Shown piece by piece: positions 625 to 45,962 of a DNA stretch of 54,603 bases (the first letter of the stretch is position 1; every line of letters starts with the position of its first letter). Where the stretch lies: contig JBHHYT010000003.1 in assembly GCA_046757705.1 (NCBI GenBank), positions 1 through 54,603 of the forward strand. Direction: 5' to 3'. Source of the DNA: Thermodesulfobacteriota bacterium. GTDB taxonomy: Bacteria > Desulfobacterota > GWC2-55-46. Below the pieces are notes generated by a model that searched no databases, was not told where the DNA came from, and saw only the letters and a list, made by a program, of their open reading frames with translations. The translations under genes and the position numbers were made by a program.

Positions 625-999
625 CGGAGGGTGCCTGGCGGCCGCCGCCGCTGTAAGCGGCGGAGGAAAGTCCGGACACCACAGGGCAGGGAGGTCGCTA
701 ACGGCGACCGGGGGCGACCCCAGGGACAGGGCCACAGAAAACAGACCGCCCCTTTCGAGGGGTAAGGGTGAAAAGGCGGGGTAAGAGCCCACCAGCCGGC
801 CGGGTGACCGGCCGGGCTTGGTAACCCCCTCCCGGTGCAAGGCCGAATAGGTTCCGCATCAAGGACTGCCCGTCCTTTTTCCCTCACGGGAAGGGCGGAA
901 CGGGTTGGCTGCTCGAGGCCGCTGGCAACAGCGGACCCAGACGAATGGCCGCCGCCCCGGGCAACCGGGGGCACAGGATCCGGCTTACGGCATCCTCCG
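625..999 (+). ncRNA. rnpB: RNase P RNA, bacterial type A
   Basis: GAGGAAAGTCCGG near the 5' end, GCCACAGAAA, GGGTGAAAAGG..GGTAAGAGC, AGACGAATG and 3' ACAGGATCCGGCTTA are all present. P1 pairs CGGAGGGTGCC with GGCATCCTCCG, and P4 shows a compensatory A-U pair. Confidence 0.97.
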
Positions 1000-1099
1000 T
1001 TGTTTTTTTCTTCCATCCGCGTCCGGTCTCCGGCCCTCACGAAAAACGCAGAGGCGTGAGGGCGTGTACCCGCGGGGGCCACGGGGCCACGGGGCGCGA

Positions 1100-35416: not shown

Positions 35417-36997
35417 ATGAGGAGCATCTTCTGGAGGGTAATACTGCTGTCCATCTTTACGGTGGTAGCGCTGGTATTATTCCTGCCGTCAACGCCTTTT
35501 TCAAATAGACTCCCCTCCTTCTGGGCGGACTACATACCAAAGATAGTCCTCGGCCTCGACCTTCAGGGGGGCATGCACCTGGTGCTCGACGTGGACAGGG
35601 ACAAGGCCGTCGAGACCCATACGCAAAGGCTCGTAAGCTCTGTCGAGGACACATTGAGGGACAAGGACATACCCTACGGGTACGTCACCAGAGAGGGCAT
35701 ATCGGGTATCGTCGTATCCTATCCCGACGAGAGGACGGCTTCGGCGATAAGAAGGGTCCTCTCCGACGACTTCAGCGTCTTCGACAAGCCCGCGACGCAG
35801 GACGGCAAGCTTGTCGTGCACCTTCAGGATGACGAGGTGAACAGGCTCAAGGGGTGGGCGGTCTCTCAGGCGCTCGAGACCATAAGGAACAGGATAGACA
35901 AGTTCGGCGTGGCCGAGCCCGTGATACAGAAGCAGGGCGACAGCCAGCTCGTCATACAGCTCCCGGGCCTCAAGGACCCGGAGAGGGCCATACAGCTCAT
36001 CGGCAAGACCGCGGTGCTCGAGTTCAGGCTCGTGGACGAGTCCATGGACGCGTCCACCGCGCTGCGCACGGGAGCGCCCCCCGGCTCGGAGGTTCTCTAC
36101 GGGGAGGAGAAAGAGGGCGACGTCGTTACGAAGGTGCCCTACCTGGTAAGGAAAGAGGTGCTCCTTACCGGAGACTCGCTCTCGGACGCGAGGGTCGCCT
36201 TCGACAGCCAGTACAACGAGCCTTACGTCTCCATAGTCTTCGACTCCGCCGGCTCGCGGATATTCGACCGCGTAACCAGCCAGAACACCGGCAAGAGGCT
36301 CGCCATAGTCCTCGACGGCAAGGTGCACTCGGCCCCCCAGATAAGGGAGGCGATAACCGGCGGAAAGGCGCAGATAACCGGCAGGTTCACGTACGAGGAG
36401 GCGACCGACCTCGCGATAGTCTTGAGGGCGGGCGCGCTTCCGGCCCCGGTCGAGATCATACAGAACGTCACCGTCGGCCCCACGCTCGGCACCGACTCCA
36501 TCAGGGCGGGCGTAAGGGCGGCGCTTCTGGGGGCGGGCCTCGTGCTCCTGTTCATGATATTCTACTACAGGCTTTCCGGCGTTATAGCCGACTTCGCCAT
36601 ATTCCTCAACATCGTAATGCTCCTCGGGGCCATGGCGTGGCTCAACTCCACGCTCACGCTTCCGGGCATCGCCGGCATAATACTTACGATGGGCATGGGC
36701 GTCGACTCCAACGTCCTCATCTTCGAGAGGATAAAGGAGGAGATGAGGGGCGGAAGGACGCCGCGCAGCGCCATAAACGCGGGCTACGACCACGCGTGGT
36801 GGACCATCGTGGACTCCCATGTTACGACGCTTATCACCGCCGCCGTGCTCTTCCAGTTCGGCAGCGGCCCGATAAAGGGCTTTGCCGTAACGCTGAGCCT
36901 CGGCATACTGATAAACCTGTTCACATCGCTCGTCGGCACCAAGGTGGCCTTCGACATCCAGAGCGAGAAGTTCAGGATAAAGTCTTTGAGCATATAG
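35417..36997 (+). CDS. secD: Protein translocase subunit SecD
   Basis: LGLDLQGG, RIDKFGVAEP, LRAGALPAP, VDSNVLIFERI and GPIKGFA. Confidence 0.98.
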   Translation: MRSIFWRVILLSIFTVVALVLFLPSTPFSNRLPSFWADYIPKIVLGLDLQGGMHLVLDVDRDKAVETHTQRLVSSVEDTLRDKDIPYGYVTREGISGIVVSYPDERTASAIRRVLSDDFSVFDKPATQDGKLVVHLQDDEVNRLKGWAVSQALETIRNRIDKFGVAEPVIQKQGDSQLVIQLPGLKDPERAIQLIGKTAVLEFRLVDESMDASTALRTGAPPGSEVLYGEEKEGDVVTKVPYLVRKEVLLTGDSLSDARVAFDSQYNEPYVSIVFDSAGSRIFDRVTSQNTGKRLAIVLDGKVHSAPQIREAITGGKAQITGRFTYEEATDLAIVLRAGALPAPVEIIQNVTVGPTLGTDSIRAGVRAALLGAGLVLLFMIFYYRLSGVIADFAIFLNIVMLLGAMAWLNSTLTLPGIAGIILTMGMGVDSNVLIFERIKEEMRGGRTPRSAINAGYDHAWWTIVDSHVTTLITAAVLFQFGSGPIKGFAVTLSLGILINLFTSLVGTKVAFDIQSEKFRIKSLSI

Positions 36998-37093
36998 CGG
37001 GCCGCGTCTCTTGGCGGCCTGACAAAAGCATTCAGGGCCCCCTGCTTTTTGGGGCCCGGCCCCCGTGCAAGGGGCCCTTACGGAGGTCTTGAC

Positions 37094-38023
37094 TTGGACA
37101 TACTCGGTGAAACTCGAATAGATTTTCTCGGCAAACGGCGGATAACCTTCGTCATCTCCGGCCTGCTCGTCCTTCTGGGCATCGTGGCCGTCTTCGCCAT
37201 ACCGCTCGGCAAGGCCAACCTCGGCACGGACTTCGCCGGGGGCATCGCCATACAGTTCCGGTTCGAGAAACCCCTCGATATTCAGAAGGTAAGGGACCTG
37301 CTCGGCGACAGCGGCTTCAAGGACGCCAACCTCCAGCAGTTCTCGGAGCCGAACAAGCTGCTGGTGCGCCTCAAGAGGTCCGAGGGGAACCTGAGGCAGA
37401 TATCCGTATCCATCGGGGAGACCTTCGCCAAGGGGCTGCCGGGCAACCCGTACATCATCGACTCCACCACCGAGGTCGGCCCCACGGTAGGCAAGAAGCT
37501 GCAGAGCGACGCCATGTGGGCCATCGCCATCTCGCTTCTCGGCATACTCATATATGTGGCGTGGAGGTTCGAGTTCCGCTTCGGCGTGGCCGCCGTGGCC
37601 GCCACCTTCCACGACGTGCTCGTGGTCATGGGCATCCTCTTCATCCTCCAGAAGGAGATGACACTGCTCATCGTAACGGCGCTGCTTACCCTTGCGGGCT
37701 ATTCGCTCACCGACACCGTCGTCATATTCGACAGGATACGCGAGAACATGCACAAGAGGACGAGGGAGGAGTTCGACCCGCTGGTCAACAGGTCCATAAA
37801 CGAGGTGCTCAGAAGGACCATCGTCACCTCGCTTACCACACTCCTGGTGCTCCTCGCGCTGATTGTGCTCGGCGGAGAGGTCATCCACGACTTCTCCCTG
37901 GCCCTCTTCCTCGGTGTGCTCGTGGGCACCTACTCGTCGGTATTCGTCGCAAGCCCGCTGCTGCTGCTATGGAAGCCCGCCAAGAAGAAGCACGCGGCGA
38001 AACCGGCGCACGCAAGGCCATAA
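37094..38023 (+). CDS. secF: Protein translocase subunit SecF
   Basis: LGTDFAGG, FHDV, GYSLTDTVVIFDRIRE and GTYSS; GGAGG lies 7 nt before the TTG at 37094. Confidence 0.97.
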   Translation: MDILGETRIDFLGKRRITFVISGLLVLLGIVAVFAIPLGKANLGTDFAGGIAIQFRFEKPLDIQKVRDLLGDSGFKDANLQQFSEPNKLLVRLKRSEGNLRQISVSIGETFAKGLPGNPYIIDSTTEVGPTVGKKLQSDAMWAIAISLLGILIYVAWRFEFRFGVAAVAATFHDVLVVMGILFILQKEMTLLIVTALLTLAGYSLTDTVVIFDRIRENMHKRTREEFDPLVNRSINEVLRRTIVTSLTTLLVLLALIVLGGEVIHDFSLALFLGVLVGTYSSVFVASPLLLLWKPAKKKHAAKPAHARP

Positions 38024-38311
38024 ACGAAAAGTTAAGTTATTTTTTGTATCTTCCAACCTGCTGGATTACAAGGGGTTATTCGCCCTTCTCCCTTCACGTC
38101 CCTTCGCCTCCCTTAAAAAGCGGTTGTATTTTTTCGCGTTTTGTGGTATTTCAAGATAACACTTGGAATACGGTCGTTTTATGGGGGCCTTCCATAACAT
38201 CTCGATTCGTAAGGGTTTTTTGCTTCCAGAGGCTCAGGGAGGGCATCCGGGGGCATGAGGCTAAGACCGCCTCTGTACCGATTGAATCCTATTGGTATTG
38301 GAGGTTTTTTT

Positions 38312-39922
38312 TTGCAAAAAAACAGGACATGCATAGAGCCCACAGGCATCAGCGACGGCATGGAGAAGAGGATCAAAACCGTTACGACCGGGTCGTTGGA
38401 TTTGACCGGGTGGCGGGCTTTTCAGGAGGGGCTCTCGGGACTTCTTGGCATACCCGTCTCTCTGTATGACAGCGGCGCAAACCTGCTCGCCGCCTCGGCG
38501 GGCACGGACGCGCTCTGCCGCGCGGTGCAGTCCCACGTCGAGGGCGGGCCGCTGTGCGCCAGGACCTACGCCAACGCCGTCGCCCAGGTCATCGAGCGCG
38601 GCAAGACCTACATATACAAATGCCACATCAACAAGTATATCTTCGCCGTGCCGGTGGACGTCTCCCCCGGCCTTTCGGTCGTCGTCGTCGGCGGGCAGGC
38701 GTACCTTTCGGGAAACGAGCGGGAGCAGTACATAAGCGGCATGGCGCACCTCGGCCTTGACGAGTCCTCCGTGGCAAGCCTCGGGCAGGCTCTCAGGACC
38801 ATACCGCCCAAGTCAGTATTCACCCTGCCGACCATAATAAAAAACCTCTCGGCCCCGCTGCTCAAGTGCATATACAACCACACCGGGCCCGTACCCGGGC
38901 AGAAGGAGGGCGGGGGCGAAAGCCAGCTCAACATACTCGACCAGGTCTACAGGTCGATAGCCCCGGTGCTCGACAGGGAAGAGCTCTACGAGGCGATACT
39001 CGCCAAGTCATCGGAGCTCGTGGACGCTGACCGCGGCTCGCTTATGATACTCGACAACAAGAACGACGTCCTTTCGATAAAGGCCTCCAAGGGCATAGAC
39101 CCGAGGATAATAGACAGCCTCCGGGTAAGGGTCGGGGAGGGGATATCCGGGGCCATAGTGGCAAAGGGGCTGCCCGTTATCGTAAAGGACATAGAGAGCG
39201 AGGTGCCTTCGTGGACGAACAGGCCGCTCTACAAGACCAAGAGCTTCCTTTCGGTGCCGCTCAAGCTCGACGAAAGGGTCATAGGCGTAATAAACGTATC
39301 GGACAAGTCCACGGGCGCCTCCTTCTCCGACCACGACATGGAGCTGCTGCTCTCCTTCGCCAGCTTCGCGTCCATCGCCCTGGAGAGGGGCGCCTACTAC
39401 TCCATGAGCGAAGAGCTCAAGATGCTCTCCATGACGGACCCCCTTACGGGCCTGTTCAACAGGAGGTACCTGCGCGAGAGGCTCTACGAGGAGGTCGAGC
39501 GCGTAAAGAGGCACAGCGAGTGCTTCAGCACCTTCCTCATAGACATAGACAACTTCAAGAGCTTCAACGACAGGTTCGGCCACAGCGCGGGAGATGAGAT
39601 ATTGAAGGGGATATCGCACACCATAAGGGACGCGGTAAGGTCCATGGACGTGGTGGCCCGCTACGGGGGCGAGGAGTTCGCCGTGATACTGCCGCACACC
39701 GGCAAGAGGGACGCATCCATCATCGCCGAGAGGATACGCGAGGACGTGGAGGAGTACAGGCGCATGGTAAAGCCGTTCAAGGAATGGCCCACCATAAGCC
39801 TCGGGGTGGCGGAGTTCCCCAACGACGCAAACGATATAGACGAGCTGATAAACAAGGCCGACAGCGCGATGTACCACGCCAAGAGGACCGGCAAGAACAA
39901 GGTGGTGGTCTATGAAGGATAG
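38312..39922 (+). CDS. PocR-GAF-GGDEF diguanylate cyclase
   Basis: PocR-like Cys pattern (LCRAV...LC...YKCH...FAVPV...GGQ), GAF (SFLSVPL...IGVINV), TDPLTGLFNRR, RSMD I-site and GGEEF; start TTG 38312 (after GGAGG) or ATG 38360. Confidence 0.92.
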   Translation: MQKNRTCIEPTGISDGMEKRIKTVTTGSLDLTGWRAFQEGLSGLLGIPVSLYDSGANLLAASAGTDALCRAVQSHVEGGPLCARTYANAVAQVIERGKTYIYKCHINKYIFAVPVDVSPGLSVVVVGGQAYLSGNEREQYISGMAHLGLDESSVASLGQALRTIPPKSVFTLPTIIKNLSAPLLKCIYNHTGPVPGQKEGGGESQLNILDQVYRSIAPVLDREELYEAILAKSSELVDADRGSLMILDNKNDVLSIKASKGIDPRIIDSLRVRVGEGISGAIVAKGLPVIVKDIESEVPSWTNRPLYKTKSFLSVPLKLDERVIGVINVSDKSTGASFSDHDMELLLSFASFASIALERGAYYSMSEELKMLSMTDPLTGLFNRRYLRERLYEEVERVKRHSECFSTFLIDIDNFKSFNDRFGHSAGDEILKGISHTIRDAVRSMDVVARYGGEEFAVILPHTGKRDASIIAERIREDVEEYRRMVKPFKEWPTISLGVAEFPNDANDIDELINKADSAMYHAKRTGKNKVVVYEG

Positions 39923-42194
39923 GTTCCTGTTCAGCGTCTGTCCCGAGAACGAGTTCTTCGACAGGACGGGCGAGATAGAGTACATACTCGCCAGGGCCGG
40001 CGGGGACGCGCGTCCGCCCGGCCTATTCCTTTCCGGCGGCAGGTGGACCGGCAAGACCGAGATATTGCGCAGGGCCCACGCGAGCCTCTTCTGGGACCAG
40101 GCCCGGGTGCTCCCGGTCTACTACCAGTTCAGGGACTACGGCGCGGCCGAGGGGCTTGTAGACGACTACCTCAAAGAGGTGCTCAAACAGTTCCTCGCCT
40201 TCGGAAGGCGCGAGCCCGCCCTCGTCGGGCAGGACCTGACCCTGGGCAGGCTGGAGGAGATGCTCGCATGCGAGGGCCTCGACATGGCCGGGCCCATATC
40301 CATCCACAGGGACGCCCGGAAGGCCGGCGACATCATATCCGGCTTAAGGAACGTGGCCGGGCTGCCGAAGTGTATAACTGAACAGGCAGGTATTCCGGTA
40401 TACCTCATGCTCGACGACCTCGACGAGGGCGCGTCCATGCTTGCCGGATACGGCCCGGGGGCCGCCGGGGAGTTCATGGAAGCCTTCGGGCGCGGCGGGG
40501 TCCCGTTCGTGGCCTCCGGCTCCACGAAGGACGTGCTCGACAGCGGCGTGCTCGGCTCCGTGGAGCCGCTCCGCCTGCGCGGGCTCGAGCCCTCCGAGGC
40601 GGGCTCCATGATGATGGAGCTGTGCCGCCAGTACGACGTGGGGTTCGACTCCGAGGTCCTCTCGTTCGCCGCCGGGAAGCTCGAGGGCAACCCGATGTAC
40701 ATGAAAAACATCGTCTGGGCGGCCCGGAGGGCGTCCACCGGCTTTCTTACACTAAAAGATTTCATTGACCTCTATGCAAAAGAGCTTTTTGATGGTAATA
40801 TTGGCCTGGCCCTGCGCTCGTCCATCCGCCTGCGCGGGCTCGCGGAGCTAAAGGCGCTCCACGCCATCACCTCCGGCGGGACCTCTGAAGAGGCGCTCTC
40901 CGAGAGGTTCGGCCTGCCGGCCGGGCAGCTGCGCCAGACCCTCAAGGACCTCTGCGCCGAGGGGCTCGTGGACGCCGCCCTCGGCTCCGTAAGGTGGGCC
41001 GGCGACGGGGTCGCGCGCGACTTCGTAAGGTTCAATTACGAGACCCGCGTAAGGGGCAGGGACGCCGACGAGGTGCGCACCTTCATGGTAAGGGACGGCC
41101 TCAAGGAGGGCTTCGACCTCAAGGGCGCCGTCGTAAGGGGAAGGCTCAAGGAAGAGACCGCCTCGCTCCTCTCCCTATTCAACGGGCAGAAGGTCTTGAA
41201 GGTGCTCCTCGACAACCGTTCCTTCTGCGCGCGGTATCCCTCCGGCGCGGAAGGGGGCCACGGGGGCCACGGGGATCAAGGGGGCCAGGGGGGCCAGGGA
41301 GATGCGGGCCACGAGGGGCAGGGGGTACAGGCAGGGCAGGGGGTGCAGGGCTCCGCTGCGGACGAGTTGACGCTGCCGCAGATAATCGGTTGCTTCGACT
41401 CCACGGTCTGGGAGAAGAACGAGACGGGGCCGCCCGTTATAATAGCCAACGGTTTTGAGAACAACAGGTACGATGCCGGCAACGAGGTGGTCTGGGTGGC
41501 CGCCGTGAAGGACTCGCTCACCCCGGTCAACATAGGGGACGTGGAGAACTTCCTGAGGCGGGGCCAGATACTGAGGCAGAACTTCAGGACCACGCGCGTC
41601 TTCAAGTGGTTCGTGGGCAGGGAGGGCTTCACGCTCGAGGCGCGCAAAAGGCTCGATGCCGAGGGTGTCTTCTCCTCCGACCAGGAGCAGGTACGGGTCC
41701 TGCGGGACAGCCTCGAGGACAGGGAGGCCGCCGGGCCGCCGGGCACCGGCAACGTCGCCCCGAACAAGGAGTTCGAGGTGGTGCTCCCCGCCTCCACCAA
41801 GGCGGAGCTCGTGGCGGCGCGCGCCGTCGAGGAGATAGGCACCGAGATGGGCTTCGACGAGATAGCCATCGGCCAGATAAAGGCGGCCCTCATCGAGGCG
41901 TGCATAAACGCCTTCGAGCACAGCAAGGCCAAGGCGACCAAGGTCTTCCTGAGGTTCGTCTCCGGGGGTGGCAGGCTCGTTATCCATGTCCAGAACGGAG
42001 GGGTGGACTTCGACAGGGCCCCGGGCAGGGCCGTGACCGCCGCCGAGAGCGGGGAGCTCAGGAAACGCGGCTGGGGCCTCGAGCTCATGAAGGGGCTGAT
42101 GGACGAGGTCAGGTTCGAGAAGATACGCGGCGGCACCAAGGTCGTCATGGTCAAATATCTGATAAAAGGAGACAACAGGGATGAACAGGCATAA
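39912..42194 (+). CDS. P-loop ATPase (archaeal/STAND-like) fused to a C-terminal RsbW-type anti-sigma Ser kinase (HATPase_c_2)
   Basis: FFDRTGE, Walker A GGRWTGKT, Walker B LMLDD and GNP motif; C-terminal EACINAFEH, RGWGLELMKGLMDEV and GTKV. Confidence 0.8.
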   Translation: MKDRFLFSVCPENEFFDRTGEIEYILARAGGDARPPGLFLSGGRWTGKTEILRRAHASLFWDQARVLPVYYQFRDYGAAEGLVDDYLKEVLKQFLAFGRREPALVGQDLTLGRLEEMLACEGLDMAGPISIHRDARKAGDIISGLRNVAGLPKCITEQAGIPVYLMLDDLDEGASMLAGYGPGAAGEFMEAFGRGGVPFVASGSTKDVLDSGVLGSVEPLRLRGLEPSEAGSMMMELCRQYDVGFDSEVLSFAAGKLEGNPMYMKNIVWAARRASTGFLTLKDFIDLYAKELFDGNIGLALRSSIRLRGLAELKALHAITSGGTSEEALSERFGLPAGQLRQTLKDLCAEGLVDAALGSVRWAGDGVARDFVRFNYETRVRGRDADEVRTFMVRDGLKEGFDLKGAVVRGRLKEETASLLSLFNGQKVLKVLLDNRSFCARYPSGAEGGHGGHGDQGGQGGQGDAGHEGQGVQAGQGVQGSAADELTLPQIIGCFDSTVWEKNETGPPVIIANGFENNRYDAGNEVVWVAAVKDSLTPVNIGDVENFLRRGQILRQNFRTTRVFKWFVGREGFTLEARKRLDAEGVFSSDQEQVRVLRDSLEDREAAGPPGTGNVAPNKEFEVVLPASTKAELVAARAVEEIGTEMGFDEIAIGQIKAALIEACINAFEHSKAKATKVFLRFVSGGGRLVIHVQNGGVDFDRAPGRAVTAAESGELRKRGWGLELMKGLMDEVRFEKIRGGTKVVMVKYLIKGDNRDEQA

Positions 42195-42543
42195 GAACTT
42201 CAAGGAGCTCGGAGAGACGGTGGTCCTTTATCCCGACAACTATATAAACGACATAGAAGGGGAGAAGCTCGAAGAGCTCTGTGACGCCTTCCTCAAGAAG
42301 GGGTTCAAGAAGATAATAATAGACTTCTCGGAGACCGACCTCATAAACTCCATCGGCATCTCCATACTCATCGGGATAATAGAGAAGATAAAGGACAAAA
42401 AGGGCGTCATCTTCTTCTCCGGGCTCAAACCCGTCAACTACGACATATTCAACATCGTGGGCCTTACGAAGCACATACCCGTGTACAAGGACGAGGACGA
42501 GGCGGTAACCGTCGTGGACCACGAAGACCGCGCTATAATGTAG
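42181..42543 (+). CDS. STAS-domain anti-anti-sigma factor (RsbV/SpoIIAA-like)
   Basis: 120 aa; IIIDFSETDLINSIGISIL with Ser57 at the phospho-acceptor position; IFNIVGL. Confidence 0.9.
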   Translation: MNRHKNFKELGETVVLYPDNYINDIEGEKLEELCDAFLKKGFKKIIIDFSETDLINSIGISILIGIIEKIKDKKGVIFFSGLKPVNYDIFNIVGLTKHIPVYKDEDEAVTVVDHEDRAIM

Positions 42544-42613
42544 GCTTTTTCGGGCAGTCTTATCGGATTTCTAATAATATCTTTTTCCTGCGAAACAAGA
42601 GGGAGGTGCGTTA

Positions 42614-43846
42614 ATGGTGGATCTGGACCTTAGTCTCGAGAGGTTGCTCTTCAATCTCAACACACTCGCTGAACTGGGGGAAGAGGTCACCTCGCCCAAG
42701 GACTTTACCAGGGTGGTAAAATCCGCCCTTTACATGGTAATGGGCTCTTTTTCCGCCTCCAAGGGGGTCATATTCCAGAACGACCCGGAGTCCGCCACAT
42801 TCTCTCCCATAGCCTCCAAGGGCCTCGGGGACGTAAGGGGCGTGCGCTTCTCCGTTCCCGCCGGGGCGCTCGCCAGCTTCGTCGAGCACAACAAGCCCAT
42901 AGACCTTAAGCTCGACGCGGAGCGCGCCGCCCTGCTCGGCCCCGCCCGCGAGGAGCTCGAAAAGCTCGGCGCGCGCGCCATAGTCTTCCTCGTGGTAAAG
43001 GACGAGGTGCTGGGCCTTATCTGCATCAACGAGAAGTTCATCGGAGAGGAGCATTCGGTCTACGACTTCCAGCTCCTCTCGGTCATGGCCCAGCACATAG
43101 CCTTCTCACTGCAGGGCCACTCGCTGCTTATGAGGCTCATGCACAAGTACAACGAGAACAAGGGCCTGTACGAGAACCTGCGCCGCATATACTACGACAC
43201 CATACACGCCTTCGCCGCGGCCATCGACGCCAAGGACGCGTACACCAAGGGACACTCCCACAGGGTCTCGGCGTACTGCGCGGTGCTCGCGCGCGAGATG
43301 GGCTGGGCGAGCGACGAGATAGAGGGCATACGGATTTCCGGCCTTCTGCACGACATCGGCAAGATAGCCGTGGACAAGTCCATAATAAACAAAGCCACCC
43401 CTCTGACGAGCGTGGAGTGCAGGGAGCTGAACTCGCATCCGGTCATAGGCTACGAGATACTCTCGAAGATAAAGTTCCCCTGGAAGGGCATACCCATGAT
43501 GACGCGCAACCACCACGAGAAGGTCGACGGCAGCGGGTACCCGGACAGGCTCAGGAGGGAAGAGATACCCATGGGCGCGAGGATAATGGCGCTGGTGGAC
43601 GCCTTCGACGCCATGACGACCGACAGGCCCTACAGGCCGCGGCTCTCCTTCAAGGAGGCGATGGACGAGGTCAGGAGCAACTTCAACAAGCAGTTCGACC
43701 CGGACGTCGTTCAGCCCTTCATCTCGGTCATACGCAAGGAGGTCCTCGGAGAGGTGGAAAACCCCTCGATAGTGCCCCTCCTGCAGGAGCACCTCGACTC
43801 GGTGACCATAAACAGGCTGCTCGACGGTTTCCCGGGGTCGGCTTGA
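42614..43846 (+). CDS. GAF + HD-GYP cyclic-dinucleotide phosphodiesterase
   Basis: DAKDAYTKGHSHRV, LHDIGK, HHEKVDGSGYP, DAFDAMTTDRPYR and QFDP. Confidence 0.92.
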   Translation: MVDLDLSLERLLFNLNTLAELGEEVTSPKDFTRVVKSALYMVMGSFSASKGVIFQNDPESATFSPIASKGLGDVRGVRFSVPAGALASFVEHNKPIDLKLDAERAALLGPAREELEKLGARAIVFLVVKDEVLGLICINEKFIGEEHSVYDFQLLSVMAQHIAFSLQGHSLLMRLMHKYNENKGLYENLRRIYYDTIHAFAAAIDAKDAYTKGHSHRVSAYCAVLAREMGWASDEIEGIRISGLLHDIGKIAVDKSIINKATPLTSVECRELNSHPVIGYEILSKIKFPWKGIPMMTRNHHEKVDGSGYPDRLRREEIPMGARIMALVDAFDAMTTDRPYRPRLSFKEAMDEVRSNFNKQFDPDVVQPFISVIRKEVLGEVENPSIVPLLQEHLDSVTINRLLDGFPGSA

Positions 43847-43998
43847 GCGGTTTTGGCTCAAGTGCCCGGAAGACCTTGATAAAATCAGGTGAAAGGCCCG
43901 CTTTCGGCCCGCCCTCGGCGCGGGTTGCCGTGCCGGCGGGCGTTTGAAAAAAGCAATAGAGGCCGGGCCGTGGATAGCCTTGCAGGGCGATTCAAGGC

Positions 43999-44027
43999 TT
44001 GACCTCTTTTTTGTTTGCCGGTAAAAT
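43999..44027 (+). promoter_or_regulatory. Sigma70 promoter upstream of recJ
   Basis: TTGACC-17 nt-TAAAAT. Confidence 0.7.
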
Positions 44028-44219
44028 AAGGCAACGTTCCGACGGAGGATTTCCGGCCGGGGCGTGATGGGGCCTGCGCTCAGGAGGGGCCGGCACGCAG
44101 GGCCTGCGCGTCCGCGCGCGCCGCGGCTTTTCTTGCCTCCGGTTGCGCGCCCGCCCCCCGTTTACGCGGTATTCCAATTACGGAAGGTCTTTTCACAACC
44201 AGGAGCGGGGGAATGGGGG

Positions 44220-45962
44220 ATGGCGCAGATTGGGTGCGATGAAGTGAAAAAGAAGCGTTGGATGTTGAACCCTGTCAACAAGGAGCTGCAGGAGACCCTT
44301 GGCAGGGAGCTTGATATACTGCCCCTAACGGCGCAACTGCTTGTGAACAGGGGCCTTGTCGATTGCGACGGGGCCTCTTCCTTTTTAAGGCCCGTGCTTA
44401 CGGACCTCCACGACCCGTTTCTCATGAAGGGCATGGACCGGGCCGTCGGGCGCATCATGCACGCCATGGAGGCCGGGGAGAAGATAGCCGTCTACGGGGA
44501 CTACGACGTGGACGGCACCACCTCCACCGCCCTGCTCTTCCTCTTCTTCAGGGAGATAGGCGTCCACGTGGAGTGGTACATACCGGAGAGGAAGGCCGAG
44601 GGCTACGGCCTCAACGAGCAGGCGATAAAGAGGCTCCACGAGCAGGGCGTAAAGCTGGTCGTGACCGTGGACTGCGGCGTCTCCAACCGCGACGAGGTCG
44701 AGTGCGCCAGGTCGCTGGGCATCGACGTCATCATCACCGACCACCACGAGATGCCCGCCGACCCGCCAAGGGCGCACGCCGTGCTCGACCCCAAGCAGGA
44801 GGGCTGCGCCTTCCCGTTCAAGGGGCTTGCGGGTGTGGGCGTGGCCTTCAACCTCGTGATGGGCCTGCGCTCGCGCCTGCGAGAGGCGGGCTGGTTCAAG
44901 GGCGCAGAGCCGAACCTCAAGAAGTACCTCGACCTGGTCTGCATAGGCACCGTCGCAGATATGGTCCCGCTCGTGGACGAGAACCGGGTGCTCGTAAGCT
45001 ACGGCCTCAAGGAGCTCGAGAGGACCGGGAGGCCGGGCTTGAAGGCACTCAAGGAGTCGGTATCCCTCAAGCCGGGGCGCATCACCGCCGAGAACATAGC
45101 CTTCCAGATAGCGCCGAGGATAAACGCCGCCGGAAGGGTGGCAAAGGCCTCGATGGCGCTGCGCCTCCTTATAAGCGAGAGCGGCCGCGAGGCGGACGAG
45201 CTCGCCCGGAGGCTCGGCCGCGAGAACACCTCGCGCCAGAAGATAGAGGCCGATACGCTCAAGGAGGCGCTCGACATGCTCGGCAATGAAGTGAGCGACC
45301 GGGGCATCGTGCTCGCCCGCGAGGGCTGGCACCAGGGGGTCATCGGCATAGTCGCCTCCCGCCTCGTCGACAGGTTCTCGAGGCCGGTGGTGATGATAGC
45401 CCTGGACGGGGAGACCGGCAAGGGCAGCGCAAGGGGCGTAAGGTCATTCAACATCCTCGAGGGGCTCAAGGCCTGCGCCCCTCTGCTCGAGAAGTACGGC
45501 GGGCACAAGGCCGCCGCCGGGCTTACGGTCTCCAGGGCGAACCTCGAGTCCTTCAAGGCGGAGTTCATACGCTACATGAACTCCACGGTCGACGAGAAGG
45601 ACCTCGCCCCCGAGATAACCCTCGACGCCATCGTCTCGCTCGAGGAGGTCGACAACAGGCTGATCGCCGAGATAGAGACCCTCTCGCCCTTCGGCGTCTC
45701 CAACAGGGAGCCCCTGCTGTGCCTCGTGGACGTGGACATCGTGCATACCGAGGTCGTCGGCGCCCGGCACCTGAGGTTCAAGGTCACGCAGAACGGCTGT
45801 TCGAGAAGCGGCATAGGCTTCGGGCTGGCCGGCCTGCACCCGGTAAAGGGGGCGGGCTACGGCGTCGCCTTCTCGCCGTACATGGACGAATGGCGCGGTG
45901 CCAGGAACCTTCGCCTGAGGATAAAGGACGTGAAGCTGGAGTATGCAAAATTCTTGACATAA
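44220..45962 (+). CDS. recJ: ssDNA exonuclease RecJ
   Basis: YGDYDVDG, TVDCG, TDHH, PRINAAGR and GGHKAAAG. Confidence 0.97.
   Translation: MAQIGCDEVKKKRWMLNPVNKELQETLGRELDILPLTAQLLVNRGLVDCDGASSFLRPVLTDLHDPFLMKGMDRAVGRIMHAMEAGEKIAVYGDYDVDGTTSTALLFLFFREIGVHVEWYIPERKAEGYGLNEQAIKRLHEQGVKLVVTVDCGVSNRDEVECARSLGIDVIITDHHEMPADPPRAHAVLDPKQEGCAFPFKGLAGVGVAFNLVMGLRSRLREAGWFKGAEPNLKKYLDLVCIGTVADMVPLVDENRVLVSYGLKELERTGRPGLKALKESVSLKPGRITAENIAFQIAPRINAAGRVAKASMALRLLISESGREADELARRLGRENTSRQKIEADTLKEALDMLGNEVSDRGIVLAREGWHQGVIGIVASRLVDRFSRPVVMIALDGETGKGSARGVRSFNILEGLKACAPLLEKYGGHKAAAGLTVSRANLESFKAEFIRYMNSTVDEKDLAPEITLDAIVSLEEVDNRLIAEIETLSPFGVSNREPLLCLVDVDIVHTEVVGARHLRFKVTQNGCSRSGIGFGLAGLHPVKGAGYGVAFSPYMDEWRGARNLRLRIKDVKLEYAKFLT

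What the first reader, a model, noticed from the sequence alone, without database searches (positions are those of the whole stretch)
38312..43846. Candidate new c-di-GMP partner-switching system: DGC, ATPase/RsbW kinase, STAS and HD-GYP, with no sigma factor or phosphatase
Seen: four co-oriented genes between secF and recJ. The DGC overlaps the kinase by 11 nt, the kinase overlaps STAS by 14 nt, and 70 nt separate STAS from HD-GYP. The DGC has an intact GGEEF and RxxD site, the PDE has intact HD-GYP motifs, and STAS keeps Ser57. Known: RsbW/RsbV modules normally include a sigma factor and a PP2C/SpoIIE phosphatase, while SiaABCD and HsbRAD (Pseudomonas) and BgrUVW (Sinorhizobium) show that partner switches can gate diguanylate cyclases. 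Inference: STAS phosphorylation toggles synthesis versus breakdown of c-di-GMP by the two flanking enzymes, under the control of a large nucleotide-sensing ATPase-kinase. I do not know of a characterised system with this architecture.
Basis: partly seen in the sequence, partly recalled or inferred. Interest (0 to 1): 0.85.

Follow-up and report, generated by a model that had tools for sequence, protein, structure and literature searches.

The report
Conserved STAS-kinase cassette flanked by c-di-GMP enzymes
Four neighbouring genes (a c-di-GMP maker, a large ATPase fused to an RsbW-type kinase, a small STAS protein and a c-di-GMP breaker) form a cassette that recurs in distant bacteria, and it looks like an undescribed partner-switch that sets c-di-GMP levels without a sigma factor and usually without the expected phosphatase.

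Summary
Window 38255/38312-43846 holds four co-oriented genes: a PocR-GAF-GGDEF cyclase, a 760-aa Walker-ATPase/Mrr-like/RsbW-kinase fusion, a STAS protein and a GAF-HD-GYP phosphodiesterase. Overlaps are 11 and 14 nt, the gap is 70 nt, and all motifs are intact.

The cassette is not a local accident.
- It sits between secDF and recJ across the window's order.
- The same four-gene order recurs in Pyrinomonadaceae-like soil contigs, where the kinase is about 27% identical, beside unrelated genes. It is complete in 50 of 57 fully assessable loci.
- Other clades carry kinase-STAS-HD-GYP without the cyclase.
- Among 41 relatives, kinase and STAS co-occur exactly (22/22), and only where the cyclase is present. 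The HD-GYP gene is present in 21 of those 22.

The own genome has no PP2C hit and no SigB/F/G-type sigma. Nineteen of 22 carrier genomes lack SpoIIE and PP2C_2 hits.

A STAS/HD-GYP complex model gave weak support only. The G1-box Asp of the kinase is Asn, and the ATPase Walker lysine is lost in the soil clade.

I read it as a new variant of partner switching that controls c-di-GMP turnover. The mechanism is inferred, not shown. Seven literature searches found no description.

The parts
38312..39922 (+). Diguanylate cyclase, PocR-GAF-GGDEF. The ORF is open from ATG 38255; alternative starts are TTG 38312 (after GGAGG) and ATG 38360.
   Evidence: Orthologues are 42-67% identical in 27 of 40 relatives (28 of 41 genomes with the window's own).
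39638..39679 (+). I-site RSMD (39638-39649) and active-site GGEEF (39665-39679).
   Evidence: R and D are kept in 86 of 86 aligned rows; GGEEF in 82 and AGDEF-type in 4 (rows include some loci fetched twice).
39912..42194 (+). 760-aa multidomain kinase protein (KIN). It overlaps the cyclase gene by 11 nt.
39912..41249 (+). KIN residues 1-446: Walker-type P-loop ATPase with helical and winged-helix parts. Walker A GGRWTGKT is at 40035-40058 and Walker B LMLDDL at residues 165-170.
   Evidence: Foldseek best matches are 2qen (E 3.4e-09, TMt 0.65), 2fna, Cdc6/Orc1 2qby and Apaf-1. Motifs. K48 is kept in the own and phylum clades but in only 7 of 70 soil-clade rows.
41250..41351 (+). KIN residues 447-480: Gly/Gln/His-rich low-complexity linker.
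   Evidence: pLDDT is below 50 for residues 444-480. The long insertion is present only in the window's row of alignment A1.
41352..41729 (+). KIN residues 481-606: alpha/beta domain that resembles Mrr_cat/DUF234 (restriction-endonuclease-like fold). No conserved acidic/Lys catalytic triad was seen.
   Evidence: Atlas structure rows have TM 0.58-0.74 to Mrr_cat/DUF234-bearing clusters (a lead only). The domain is absent from the ~550-585-aa short forms.
41766..42161 (+). KIN residues 619-750: RsbW/SpoIIAB-type GHKL serine-kinase domain. N-box EACINAFEH, G1 VQNGGVDF (Asn695 in place of the G1 Asp), G2 RGWG.
   Evidence: HATPase_c_2 6.2e-18. RsbW 6m36 at 9.7e-09 with alignment. Foldseek RsbW 6m37/6m36 TMt 0.88-0.93. 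Conservation.
42181..42543 (+). Single-domain STAS protein. It overlaps KIN by 14 nt and is preceded by AAGGAG.
   Evidence: STAS 5.4e-13. The profile matches SpoIIAA 1th8_B at 1.2e-11. Present in exactly the 22 of 41 relatives that carry KIN.
42349..42351 (+). Codon of Ser57, the putative phospho-acceptor in the motif INSIGIS.
   Evidence: It aligns with the first Ser of the SpoIIAA FMDSSG motif. N56, S57, G59 and S61 are kept in 135 of 135 rows (rows include some duplicates).
42614..43846 (+). GAF-HD-GYP c-di-GMP phosphodiesterase, 70 nt after STAS and preceded by GAGGGAGG. GAF-like residues ~28-148, long helix 149-207, HD-GYP ~200-380 (HDIGK, HHEKVDGSGYP).
   Evidence: HD_5 2.7e-38. Model pLDDT 85.8. 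Foldseek best match is 4mcw, a GAF-like HD-GYP, at E 2.1e-15; GAF domains 5w10 and 3trc give TMt 0.68-0.72. Catalytic residues are kept in every row that has a residue there.

Best explanation
The region is a self-contained c-di-GMP control cassette built around a sigma-less partner switch.

Proposed mechanism:
1. The C-terminal RsbW-type domain of the 760-aa protein binds the STAS protein and phosphorylates it on Ser57 (inferred from homology).
2. Kinase output is set by the N-terminal Walker ATPase / winged-helix / Mrr-like module, which acts as the sensor or assembly switch (inferred).
3. One phospho-state of STAS docks on the GAF-HD-GYP phosphodiesterase encoded next to it and changes its activity (weak model support only). 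It may also act on the PocR-GAF-GGDEF cyclase encoded upstream.
4. The switch thereby sets the balance between synthesis and breakdown of c-di-GMP.
5. Kinase-STAS is a regulatory layer added to an enzyme pair that can also work alone.
6. In this lineage no PP2C is found, so resetting must rely on another phosphatase, on turnover, or on nucleotide-state-dependent binding (unknown).
For: Domain identities and intact catalytic motifs of all four proteins.

Conservation of the cassette in different contexts:
- In the own order, 18 fetched loci keep secDF-DGC-KIN-STAS-HDGYP-recJ wherever the contig reaches.
- In 80 metagenome loci (the best of 585 relatives), the cyclase is the upstream gene in 64 of 69 assessable, STAS is the next gene in 67 of 72, and HD-GYP follows in 61 of 64. 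The order is complete in 50 of 57 fully assessable loci.
- Seventy of these 80 loci form the soil clade, where the kinase is ~27% identical to the window's. One of them (L116) was used as a query and its close relatives carry Pyrinomonadaceae (Acidobacteriota) names. The flanks there are opp-type ABC transporter genes and an FHA/STPK/PP2C/FtsW cluster.
- In 20 distant loci of the window's phylum, STAS follows KIN in 20 of 20 and HD-GYP follows in 12 of 20. The flanks differ again: radical SAM/RNase G, TPR, DctM.

Phyletic nesting in 41 relatives:
- KIN and STAS are found in the same 22 genomes and in none of the other 19.
- All 22 have the cyclase orthologue, and 21 of 22 have the HD-GYP orthologue. 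The exception, G017, has STAS at a contig end.
- Three KIN-less genomes keep the cyclase and HD-GYP: adjacent in G012 and G027, on separate contigs in G022. Three keep the cyclase only.

Sequence conservation: Ser57 and its motif are invariant in 135 of 135 rows. The N-box E/N and the G2 glycines are invariant wherever a residue is present.

Exclusivity: this is the only RsbW-type HATPase_c_2 hit in the genome (69.6 bits; the next, 27.8 bits, just clears the 27.4-bit cut-off and five more fall below it). STAS is one of only two STAS hits; the other sits in a 634-aa ORF.

The N-terminal domain of the HD-GYP protein travels with the module. Five genomes with KIN-STAS but no adjacent HD-GYP have matches only to the catalytic half.

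Complex model of STAS with HD-GYP: weak support, score 0.53 (runs 0.53/0.56/0.52), best of 3 controls 0.00. The mark was reached by 58 of 80 solved complexes and 2 of 110 mismatched pairs. At 0.60 or under it was reached by only 7 of those 80 and by both mismatches that passed. The runs agree in at least 87% of contacts and the partner pLDDT is at least 82. My own alignments were used, so these counts hold only roughly.
Against: - No experiment or RNA data exist.
- The only binding test is weak, and by its own calibration such a pass is more often wrong than right unless the guess was likely beforehand.
- The G1-box Asp that contacts adenine in GHKL kinases (role recalled from general knowledge) is Asn in all 29 own-clade rows and Ser or Asn in all 70 soil-clade rows. 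It is Asp in 14 of 17 rows of cyclase-less clades. Phosphotransfer is therefore not assured.
- Eight of 20 distant loci have KIN-STAS with no HD-GYP next to it. No full-length orthologue was found elsewhere in the five such genomes searched. KIN-STAS can therefore exist without this enzyme.
- The cyclase and HD-GYP persist without KIN-STAS in six relatives, so regulation is dispensable.
- The Walker A lysine is lost in 63 of 70 soil-clade proteins.
- The genome has six sigma-70-family genes, so a distant sigma target is not excluded.
- The many soil loci are related to each other, so the counts overstate independence.
Confidence: 0.5

Rival explanations
1. Same cassette, inverted wiring. The RsbW-like domain of KIN, not STAS, is the direct binder and inhibitor of HD-GYP or the cyclase, taking the place of the sigma factor in a classical switch. 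Unphosphorylated STAS releases the enzyme by competing for KIN.
For: This is the classical RsbW/SpoIIAB logic. The kinase domain superposes on RsbW at TMt 0.88-0.93. The cyclase gene overlaps KIN by 11 nt here and by a few nt in orthologous loci, as expected for proteins made together. The STAS-HD-GYP model was only weak.
Against: In the known c-di-GMP partner switches the STAS-like protein is the enzyme's partner (PMC8457831, Introduction and Discussion passages). The 3-gene and 2-gene forms show KIN does not need the cyclase.
Confidence: 0.2
2. KIN-STAS controls a target encoded elsewhere, such as a sigma factor or another protein. The two c-di-GMP enzymes are merely neighbours kept by synteny.
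For: Six sigma-70-family genes are present in the genome. Eight of 20 distant loci lack an adjacent HD-GYP. Within the own order the cassette is inherited vertically between secDF and recJ.
Against: - The same four-gene order is kept beside unrelated genes in a second phylum, at ~27% kinase identity.
- In 41 relatives KIN-STAS never occurs without the cyclase, and occurs without HD-GYP only at a contig end.
- No sigma gene reaches the SigB/F/G cut-off (best 141.1 bits against 234.35).
- No sigma gene was seen among the flanking genes scanned.
Confidence: 0.12
3. There is no phosphorylation cycle. With the G1 Asp replaced and no PP2C present, the GHKL domain is a nucleotide-dependent binding module (pseudo-kinase, or with altered nucleotide preference). 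STAS-KIN association is then governed by nucleotide state or by the N-terminal ATPase, and Ser57 is conserved for structure or binding.
For: The G1 position is Asn in 29 of 29 own-clade rows and Ser/Asn in 70 of 70 soil-clade rows. Nineteen of 22 carrier genomes have no SpoIIE or PP2C_2 hit. The own genome has none for three PP2C families.
Against: The N-box Glu and Asn, His670, the RGWG G2 motif and Ser57 are invariant, which is the pattern expected for a working Mg-nucleotide site and acceptor. The CapK-CapS pair is a published kinase/STAS pair for which no dedicated phosphatase is mentioned in the text I read (abstract and three passages of PMC13373217).
Confidence: 0.1
4. The cassette is an anti-phage or conflict system: a STAND-like NTPase with a nuclease-like domain and a nucleotide-signal maker and breaker.
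For: The N-terminal fold resembles STAND/Apaf-1/NLR ATPases. The middle domain resembles Mrr-type nucleases.
Against: - PADLOC gives no family for three of the four proteins and only a 17.3-bit Cas3c (HD-domain) hit for the phosphodiesterase.
- The cassette is fixed between housekeeping genes across an order.
- No catalytic nuclease residues are conserved among the invariant columns of A1.
- The GGDEF, I-site and HD-GYP motifs are those of ordinary c-di-GMP enzymes.
Confidence: 0.02

Closest known systems
HptB-HsbR-HsbA partner switch acting on the cyclase HsbD (Pseudomonas aeruginosa), and BgrSTUWV acting on BgrR (Sinorhizobium meliloti)
   Same: A STAS protein whose phosphorylation state controls a GGDEF enzyme. 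This is stated in the Introduction and Discussion passages of PMC8457831.
   Different: Those systems include a PP2C phosphatase (recalled, not checked here) and act on a cyclase only. Here there is no PP2C in the genome, an HD-GYP phosphodiesterase is the most constant enzyme partner, and the kinase is fused to a ~610-aa ATPase/Mrr-like module.
SiaABCD (P. aeruginosa)
   Same: The kinase SiaB phosphorylates the STAS-like SiaC. Unphosphorylated SiaC binds and activates the cyclase SiaD (PMC8457831, abstract and passages).
   Different: SiaC is a DUF1987 protein, not a Pfam STAS. The window's cyclase is not a SiaD equivalog (182.1 bits against a cut-off of 290). Here there is no SiaA-type PP2C, and the cassette adds a PDE.
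RsbW-RsbV-SigB and SpoIIAB-SpoIIAA-SigF (Bacillus)
   Same: The kinase domain and STAS are homologous and superposable. Ser57 aligns with the phosphorylated Ser of SpoIIAA; the identity of that residue is recalled.
   Different: There is no cognate sigma, no RsbU/SpoIIE, the G1 Asp is replaced by Asn, and the kinase protein is five times larger. Scores are far below the equivalog cut-offs (RsbW 46.8 against 145; SpoIIAA 38.3 against 114.75).
CapK-CapS (PMC13373217)
   Same: An anti-sigma-type kinase and a STAS substrate work without a sigma factor, and the kinase is switched on by a ligand (abstract). No dedicated phosphatase appears in the passages I read.
   Different: CapS is a DNA-binding repressor of immune operons and CapK senses single-stranded DNA. 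Here STAS is a bare 120-aa domain next to c-di-GMP enzymes, and PADLOC finds no defence family.
PmGH-type GAF-HD-GYP phosphodiesterase (PDB 4mcw)
   Same: The whole-protein fold match is the best hit (E 2.1e-15, 379-418 aligned columns, 22-24% identity). All HD-GYP metal and motif residues are kept.
   Different: 4mcw is not known to me to be paired with a STAS or kinase gene (recalled; not checked).
Archaeal Walker ATPases PABY2304 (2qen) and SSO1545 (2fna), the PF01637 ATPase_2 family often followed by DUF234
   Same: They are the best fold matches to KIN residues 1-~400. The middle domain resembles DUF234/Mrr_cat. Precomputed Pfam lists PF01637 or PF13191 on many homologues.
   Different: None of those proteins carries a GHKL kinase domain. 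The window's own sequence stays below the Pfam cut-offs.

Membership tests
RsbW/RsbV-type partner-switching system | RsbW/SpoIIAB-type GHKL serine-kinase (anti-sigma) domain | tested here: met
   HATPase_c_2 6.2e-18. RsbW 6m36 at 9.7e-09. Foldseek TMt 0.88-0.93 to RsbW.
RsbW/RsbV-type partner-switching system | Complete nucleotide-binding motifs of the kinase (N-box E/N, G1 DxG, G2 GxG) | tested here: inconclusive
   The N-box and G2 are invariant, but the G1 Asp is Asn695 here and Ser/Asn in the soil clade.
RsbW/RsbV-type partner-switching system | Single-domain STAS antagonist with the conserved phospho-acceptor Ser | tested here: met
   STAS 5.4e-13. Ser57 aligns with the SpoIIAA DSSG Ser and is kept in 135 of 135 rows.
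RsbW/RsbV-type partner-switching system | PP2C (RsbU/RsbP/SpoIIE) phosphatase partner | tested here: not met
   No PF07228, PF13672 or PF00481 hit in the 97.7%-complete genome. Nineteen of 22 carrier relatives have no SpoIIE or PP2C_2 hit. Soil-clade loci do have a nearby PP2C gene.
RsbW/RsbV-type partner-switching system | Cognate alternative sigma factor | tested here: not met
   None in the cluster. The best SigB/F/G score in the genome is 141.1 bits against a cut-off of 234.35. Six sigma-70-family genes exist elsewhere.
RsbW/RsbV-type partner-switching system | Phosphorylation-dependent exchange of binding partners | not testable with these tools
   Needs biochemistry.
Partner switches that gate diguanylate cyclases (HsbA-HsbD, BgrV-BgrR, SiaC-SiaD) | STAS-like protein and its kinase encoded with a GGDEF enzyme | tested here: met
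   The cyclase is upstream of KIN in 64 of 69 assessable metagenome loci.
Partner switches that gate diguanylate cyclases (HsbA-HsbD, BgrV-BgrR, SiaC-SiaD) | Orthology to a named member (SiaD equivalog) | tested here: not met
   NF038266 gives 182.1 bits against a cut-off of 290, and only the GGDEF domain matches.
Partner switches that gate diguanylate cyclases (HsbA-HsbD, BgrV-BgrR, SiaC-SiaD) | Direct binding of the STAS protein to the enzyme | tested here: inconclusive
   STAS + HD-GYP gave weak support: 0.53 against a best control of 0.00, with the calibration caveats.
Active GGDEF diguanylate cyclase | GG(D/E)EF active site and RxxD I-site five residues upstream | tested here: met
   RSMD-VVARY-GGEEF. 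Conserved in 86 of 86 rows for R and D.
HD-GYP c-di-GMP phosphodiesterase | HD, HHE and GYP metal-binding and signature residues, with the fold of solved HD-GYP enzymes | tested here: met
   Foldseek matches 4mcw, 9rbz and 4r8z (TMt up to 0.86).
PF01637-type Walker ATPase with DUF234/Mrr-like tail | Walker A and B motifs and the fold | tested here: met
   GGRWTGKT and LMLDDL. 2qen and 2fna are the best fold matches.
PF01637-type Walker ATPase with DUF234/Mrr-like tail | Score above the Pfam cut-off | tested here: not met
   Only AAA_16 at 17.2 bits against 32.6. The middle domain is known only from Atlas leads.
Anti-phage defence systems (PADLOC) | Match to a defence-system protein model | tested here: not met
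   No family for 3 of 4 proteins, and a 17.3-bit Cas3c HD hit for the fourth.

The most novel reading that the evidence does not exclude
This is a phosphatase-independent partner switch that acts on a phosphodiesterase, which would be the first of its kind.
- A STAND-like ATPase/Mrr-like sensor is fused to an RsbW kinase whose adenine-contacting Asp has become Asn or Ser in the two cyclase-bearing clades (and Asn in one small cyclase-less family). This may shift its nucleotide preference, for instance toward guanine nucleotides.
- The kinase sets the state of a STAS protein.
- STAS reciprocally gates a dedicated GAF-HD-GYP / PocR-GAF-GGDEF enzyme pair, giving a self-contained c-di-GMP toggle.
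- The toggle is shared by Acidobacteriota and an uncultured deltaproteobacterial lineage.
Probability: 0.25. Interest if true: 0.8.

Novelty: new variant of a known kind. Interest (0 to 1): 0.62.

Why it matters
In the text I read (PMC8457831), partner switches that control c-di-GMP are known only for cyclases, and by recall they come with a PP2C phosphatase. This cassette would extend the principle in three ways.
- To an HD-GYP phosphodiesterase, a class whose regulation is, by my recollection, poorly understood.
- To a paired maker/breaker module.
- To a kinase that carries its own large sensor ATPase.

The family is not rare. A kinase profile finds 417 representative clusters at E <= 1e-30. 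A soil-clade query finds 1262 proteins at E <= 1e-20, and its best listed hits carry Pyrinomonadaceae or 'RsbW' names. The module may therefore be a common but unstudied way for abundant soil Acidobacteriota and subsurface bacteria to set biofilm or motility decisions.

The large number of natural instances also makes co-evolution analysis and simple in vitro tests feasible.

Tried and rejected
- Defence-system reading: rejected (PADLOC).
- 'The cyclase is a lineage-specific add-on': I held this, where 1 of 20 distant loci had it. The metagenome scan showed the full four-gene order in a second phylum, so I dropped it.
- 'KIN-STAS-HD-GYP are lost as one unit': suggested by G005 and G009. Searches showed three relatives that keep the cyclase and HD-GYP without KIN-STAS, so I refined it.
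- Order of deep kinase clades, to decide whether the cyclase is ancestral: unresolved. The deep forks have support of 30.
- Promoter and terminator scan of 37900-44200: nothing beyond shuffle expectation for terminators (5 found, 5.0 expected). Four promoter-like sites were found against 1.3 expected, one of them before recJ. This is not informative on operon structure.
- Rfam at gathering threshold: no riboswitch near the cassette. No tRNA in the window.
- Expression: no RNA holder is listed for the stretch.
- The search for related loci on named genomes returned only 2 loci, so wider taxonomy rests on source names.
- The phylum of the window is inconsistent across sources: 'Deltaproteobacteria bacterium', 'Thermodesulfobacteriota bacterium', and the treekit label 'Myxococcota' for L032. 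I leave it open.
- Supplementary files of papers were not consulted. They are unlikely to bear on the claims, except that a supplementary gene-neighbourhood table somewhere could list this architecture.

Full report
**What is there.** Between secDF (35417-38023) and recJ (44064-45962) lie four genes on the + strand.

- A 555-aa ORF runs from 38255 to 39922. Its domains are PocR, GAF and GGDEF.
- A 760-aa ORF (39912-42194) has a C-terminal HATPase_c_2 domain.
- A 120-aa STAS protein is encoded at 42181-42543.
- A 410-aa HD_5/HD protein is encoded at 42614-43846.

**The large protein.** An AlphaFold model built on a 22-row alignment has a mean pLDDT of 79.7 and splits into three folded parts joined by disordered linkers.

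- *Residues 1-~440.* These match archaeal Walker ATPases 2qen and 2fna best, then Cdc6/Orc1 and Apaf-1/CED-4/NLR ATPases. The Walker A motif (GGRWTGKT) and Walker B motif (LMLDDL) are intact.
- *Residues 481-606.* This is an alpha/beta domain that the ESM Atlas relates to Mrr_cat/DUF234 (TM 0.58-0.74; leads only). No conserved nuclease residues appear among the invariant columns.
- *Residues 619-750.* These superpose on RsbW (TMt 0.88-0.93) and align with RsbW at E 9.7e-09.

In that alignment the G1-box Asp of RsbW faces Asn695. The N-box (E662, N666), H670 and the RGWG motif are invariant across the family.

**STAS and the enzymes.**

- The STAS profile matches SpoIIAA (1th8_B, 1.2e-11). Ser57 faces the first Ser of FMDSSG. 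N56, S57, G59 and S61 are kept in 135 of 135 rows, some of which are duplicates.
- The phosphodiesterase model (pLDDT 85.8) matches the GAF-like HD-GYP enzyme 4mcw over nearly its whole length. Its N-terminal part matches isolated GAF domains.
- The catalytic residues of both enzymes are conserved in every row that has a residue at those columns.

**Is the linkage real?** Four lines of evidence bear on this.

*Own order.* The kinase is found in 22 of 41 genomes. In 18 fetched loci the order secDF-DGC-KIN-STAS-HDGYP-recJ is kept wherever the contig reaches. Taken alone, this could be plain vertical synteny.

*Metagenome scan.* A scan with the kinase alignment gave 585 relatives among 600 matched stretches, and the best 80 loci were examined. 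I annotated them with profiles built from the orthologues.

| Neighbour of KIN | Present | Assessable loci |
|---|---|---|
| Cyclase, directly upstream | 64 | 69 |
| STAS, next gene downstream | 67 | 72 |
| HD-GYP, gene after STAS | 61 | 64 |
| Full four-gene order | 50 | 57 |

Seventy of the 80 loci form one clade whose kinase is about 27% identical to the window's. I used the kinase of one of these loci (L116) as a query. Source names on its close relatives read Pyrinomonadaceae, which is Acidobacteriota. The flanks there are opp-type ABC transporter genes on one side and an FHA/Ser-Thr kinase/PP2C/FtsW cluster on the other. The upstream gene is again PocR-GAF-GGDEF.

*The window's phylum.* The kinase occurs in 34 of 401 sampled genomes. 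In 20 distant loci, STAS follows it in 20 of 20, HD-GYP follows in 12 of 20, and the cyclase is present in only 1 of 20. The flanks are different again.

*Phyletic pattern among the 41 relatives.*

- Kinase and STAS occupy exactly the same 22 genomes.
- All 22 have the cyclase orthologue.
- Twenty-one have the HD-GYP orthologue. The exception, G017, has STAS at a contig end.
- Three kinase-less genomes keep the cyclase and HD-GYP: adjacent in G012 and G027, on separate contigs in G022.
- Three more keep the cyclase alone next to secF.

The regulators are therefore nested inside the distribution of the enzymes. That is what a dispensable regulatory layer on an enzyme pair would give.

A FastTree of 71 of 123 unique kinases resolves five or six deep clades, each with 100% support, but not their order. 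Whether the four-gene form is ancestral is open.

**What is missing.**

- *PP2C.* The genome (97.7% complete) has no hit to SpoIIE, PP2C_2 or PP2C. Of the 22 carrier genomes, only G038 has a SpoIIE hit, and only G017 and (weakly) G007 have a PP2C_2 hit. Nineteen of 22 have neither.
- *Other switch parts.* The kinase domain is the only clear RsbW-type HATPase_c_2 in the genome (69.6 bits; the next hit, 27.8 bits, just clears the 27.4-bit cut-off). The only other STAS hit lies in a 634-aa ORF.
- *Sigma factor.* Six sigma-70-family genes exist. None reaches the SigB/F/G cut-off (141.1 against 234.35 bits).

**Mechanism.** The best-supported reading is a sigma-less partner switch that controls c-di-GMP turnover.

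- *Shown:* domain identities, motif integrity, conserved adjacency in several contexts, and exact kinase-STAS co-occurrence.
- *Inferred:* phosphorylation of Ser57, sensing by the N-terminal module, and direct action of STAS on HD-GYP and perhaps on the cyclase.

The one binding test gave weak support.

- The score was 0.53 (runs 0.53, 0.56, 0.52), with 0.00 for the best of three controls.
- In the calibration the mark was reached by 58 of 80 solved complexes and 2 of 110 mismatches.
- At 0.60 or under it was reached by only 7 of those 80 and by both mismatches that passed.
- The runs agree in at least 87% of contacts, and the partner pLDDT is at least 82.
- My own alignments were used, so these counts hold only roughly.

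Indirect support also exists. The GAF-like N-terminal half of the HD-GYP protein is found only with the module. Five genomes with kinase-STAS but no adjacent HD-GYP have matches only to the catalytic half.

**Points against a simple story.**

- The G1 Asp is Asn in all 29 own-clade rows and Ser (60) or Asn (10) in the soil clade. It is Asp in 14 of 17 rows from cyclase-less clades. The change therefore tracks the clades that carry the cyclase, apart from two Asn rows of family f12. What it means for nucleotide use is unknown.
- The Walker A lysine is kept in only 7 of 70 soil-clade proteins, so ATP hydrolysis by the N-terminal module cannot be essential everywhere.
- Eight of 20 distant loci have kinase-STAS without an adjacent HD-GYP.
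- In the soil clade a PP2C gene sits three genes away, so 'phosphatase-less' may be a feature of this lineage only.

**Comparison with known systems.** Partner switches that gate cyclases are established: HsbA-HsbD, BgrV-BgrR and SiaC-SiaD (PMC8457831, abstract and four passages read). A kinase/STAS pair that works without a sigma factor has been described: CapK-CapS (PMC13373217, abstract and three passages read).

The window's proteins fall far below every NCBIfam equivalog cut-off for RsbW, SpoIIAA and SiaD. Seven full-text searches found no paper describing a kinase-STAS module linked to an HD-GYP enzyme or fused to such an ATPase. The one comparative paper I opened for this, PMC7159879, mentions STAS only in another context. 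Public annotations call the large protein 'ATP-binding protein' or 'serine/threonine-protein kinase RsbW'.

**Verdict.** This is a real, conserved and apparently undescribed variant of a known kind of system. It is widespread: 417 representative clusters at E <= 1e-30. The claim that STAS toggles both enzymes remains a hypothesis. The strongest statement the data allow is that kinase-STAS is a dedicated regulatory pair attached to a GAF-HD-GYP / PocR-GAF-GGDEF enzyme pair.

Noticed in passing
window 626-1002 (+): Bacterial RNase P RNA class A, 286.8 bits, full length. It is the only Rfam match at gathering threshold in the window. There are no tRNA genes in the window.
   Followed up: no
window 41250-41351 (KIN residues 447-480): A Gly/Gln/His-rich low-complexity insertion in the linker. 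It is long only in the window's protein among the 22 aligned kinases and is modelled as disordered.
   Followed up: no
G012:C83:2658-5629 and G027:C121:6685-9608: In these relatives the cyclase orthologue is followed directly by the HD-GYP orthologue, with no room for kinase-STAS between them. G022 has both orthologues on separate contigs (C257; C276 and C144). These look like natural deletion forms of the cassette (coordinates only, loci not fetched).
   Followed up: partly
L174 (G005:C10) and L175 (G009:C112): The order is secDF-cyclase-recJ in L174 and secDF-cyclase in L175. The cyclase is kept (51% and 47% identity) while kinase, STAS and HD-GYP are gone.
   Followed up: yes
G038:C11:20636-21031 and G038:C11:26196-26771: The one carrier genome with SpoIIE-type PP2C genes also has a second, small RsbW-like hit about 5 kb from one of them. 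This looks like a separate classical partner-switch locus.
   Followed up: no
L139:10978-16190 (-) and the same positions in many soil-clade loci: Convergent with the cassette lies a conserved cluster: FhaA-like FHA protein, Hanks-type Ser/Thr kinase, PP2C phosphatase and FtsW/RodA. The PP2C could in principle serve the STAS protein in that clade.
   Followed up: partly
L137:4073-5936 and L151:9496-9888: In two soil-clade loci, one or two extra ORFs are inserted between the kinase and STAS genes.
   Followed up: no
G000:C47:9919-10179: The only other STAS domain in the genome lies inside a 634-aa ORF. It may be a SulP-type transporter, but this was not checked.
   Followed up: no
window 38146-38171 (+): A terminator-like hairpin (10 pairs) with a T-rich tail lies in the secF-cyclase spacer. 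The terminator-like count in the region equals the shuffle expectation.
   Followed up: no
window 38255-43846: Near-identical DNA (0.99 and 0.95 of sampled words) is held by two runs of one study labelled hydrothermal vent metagenome. One of them may be the source of the window.
   Followed up: no
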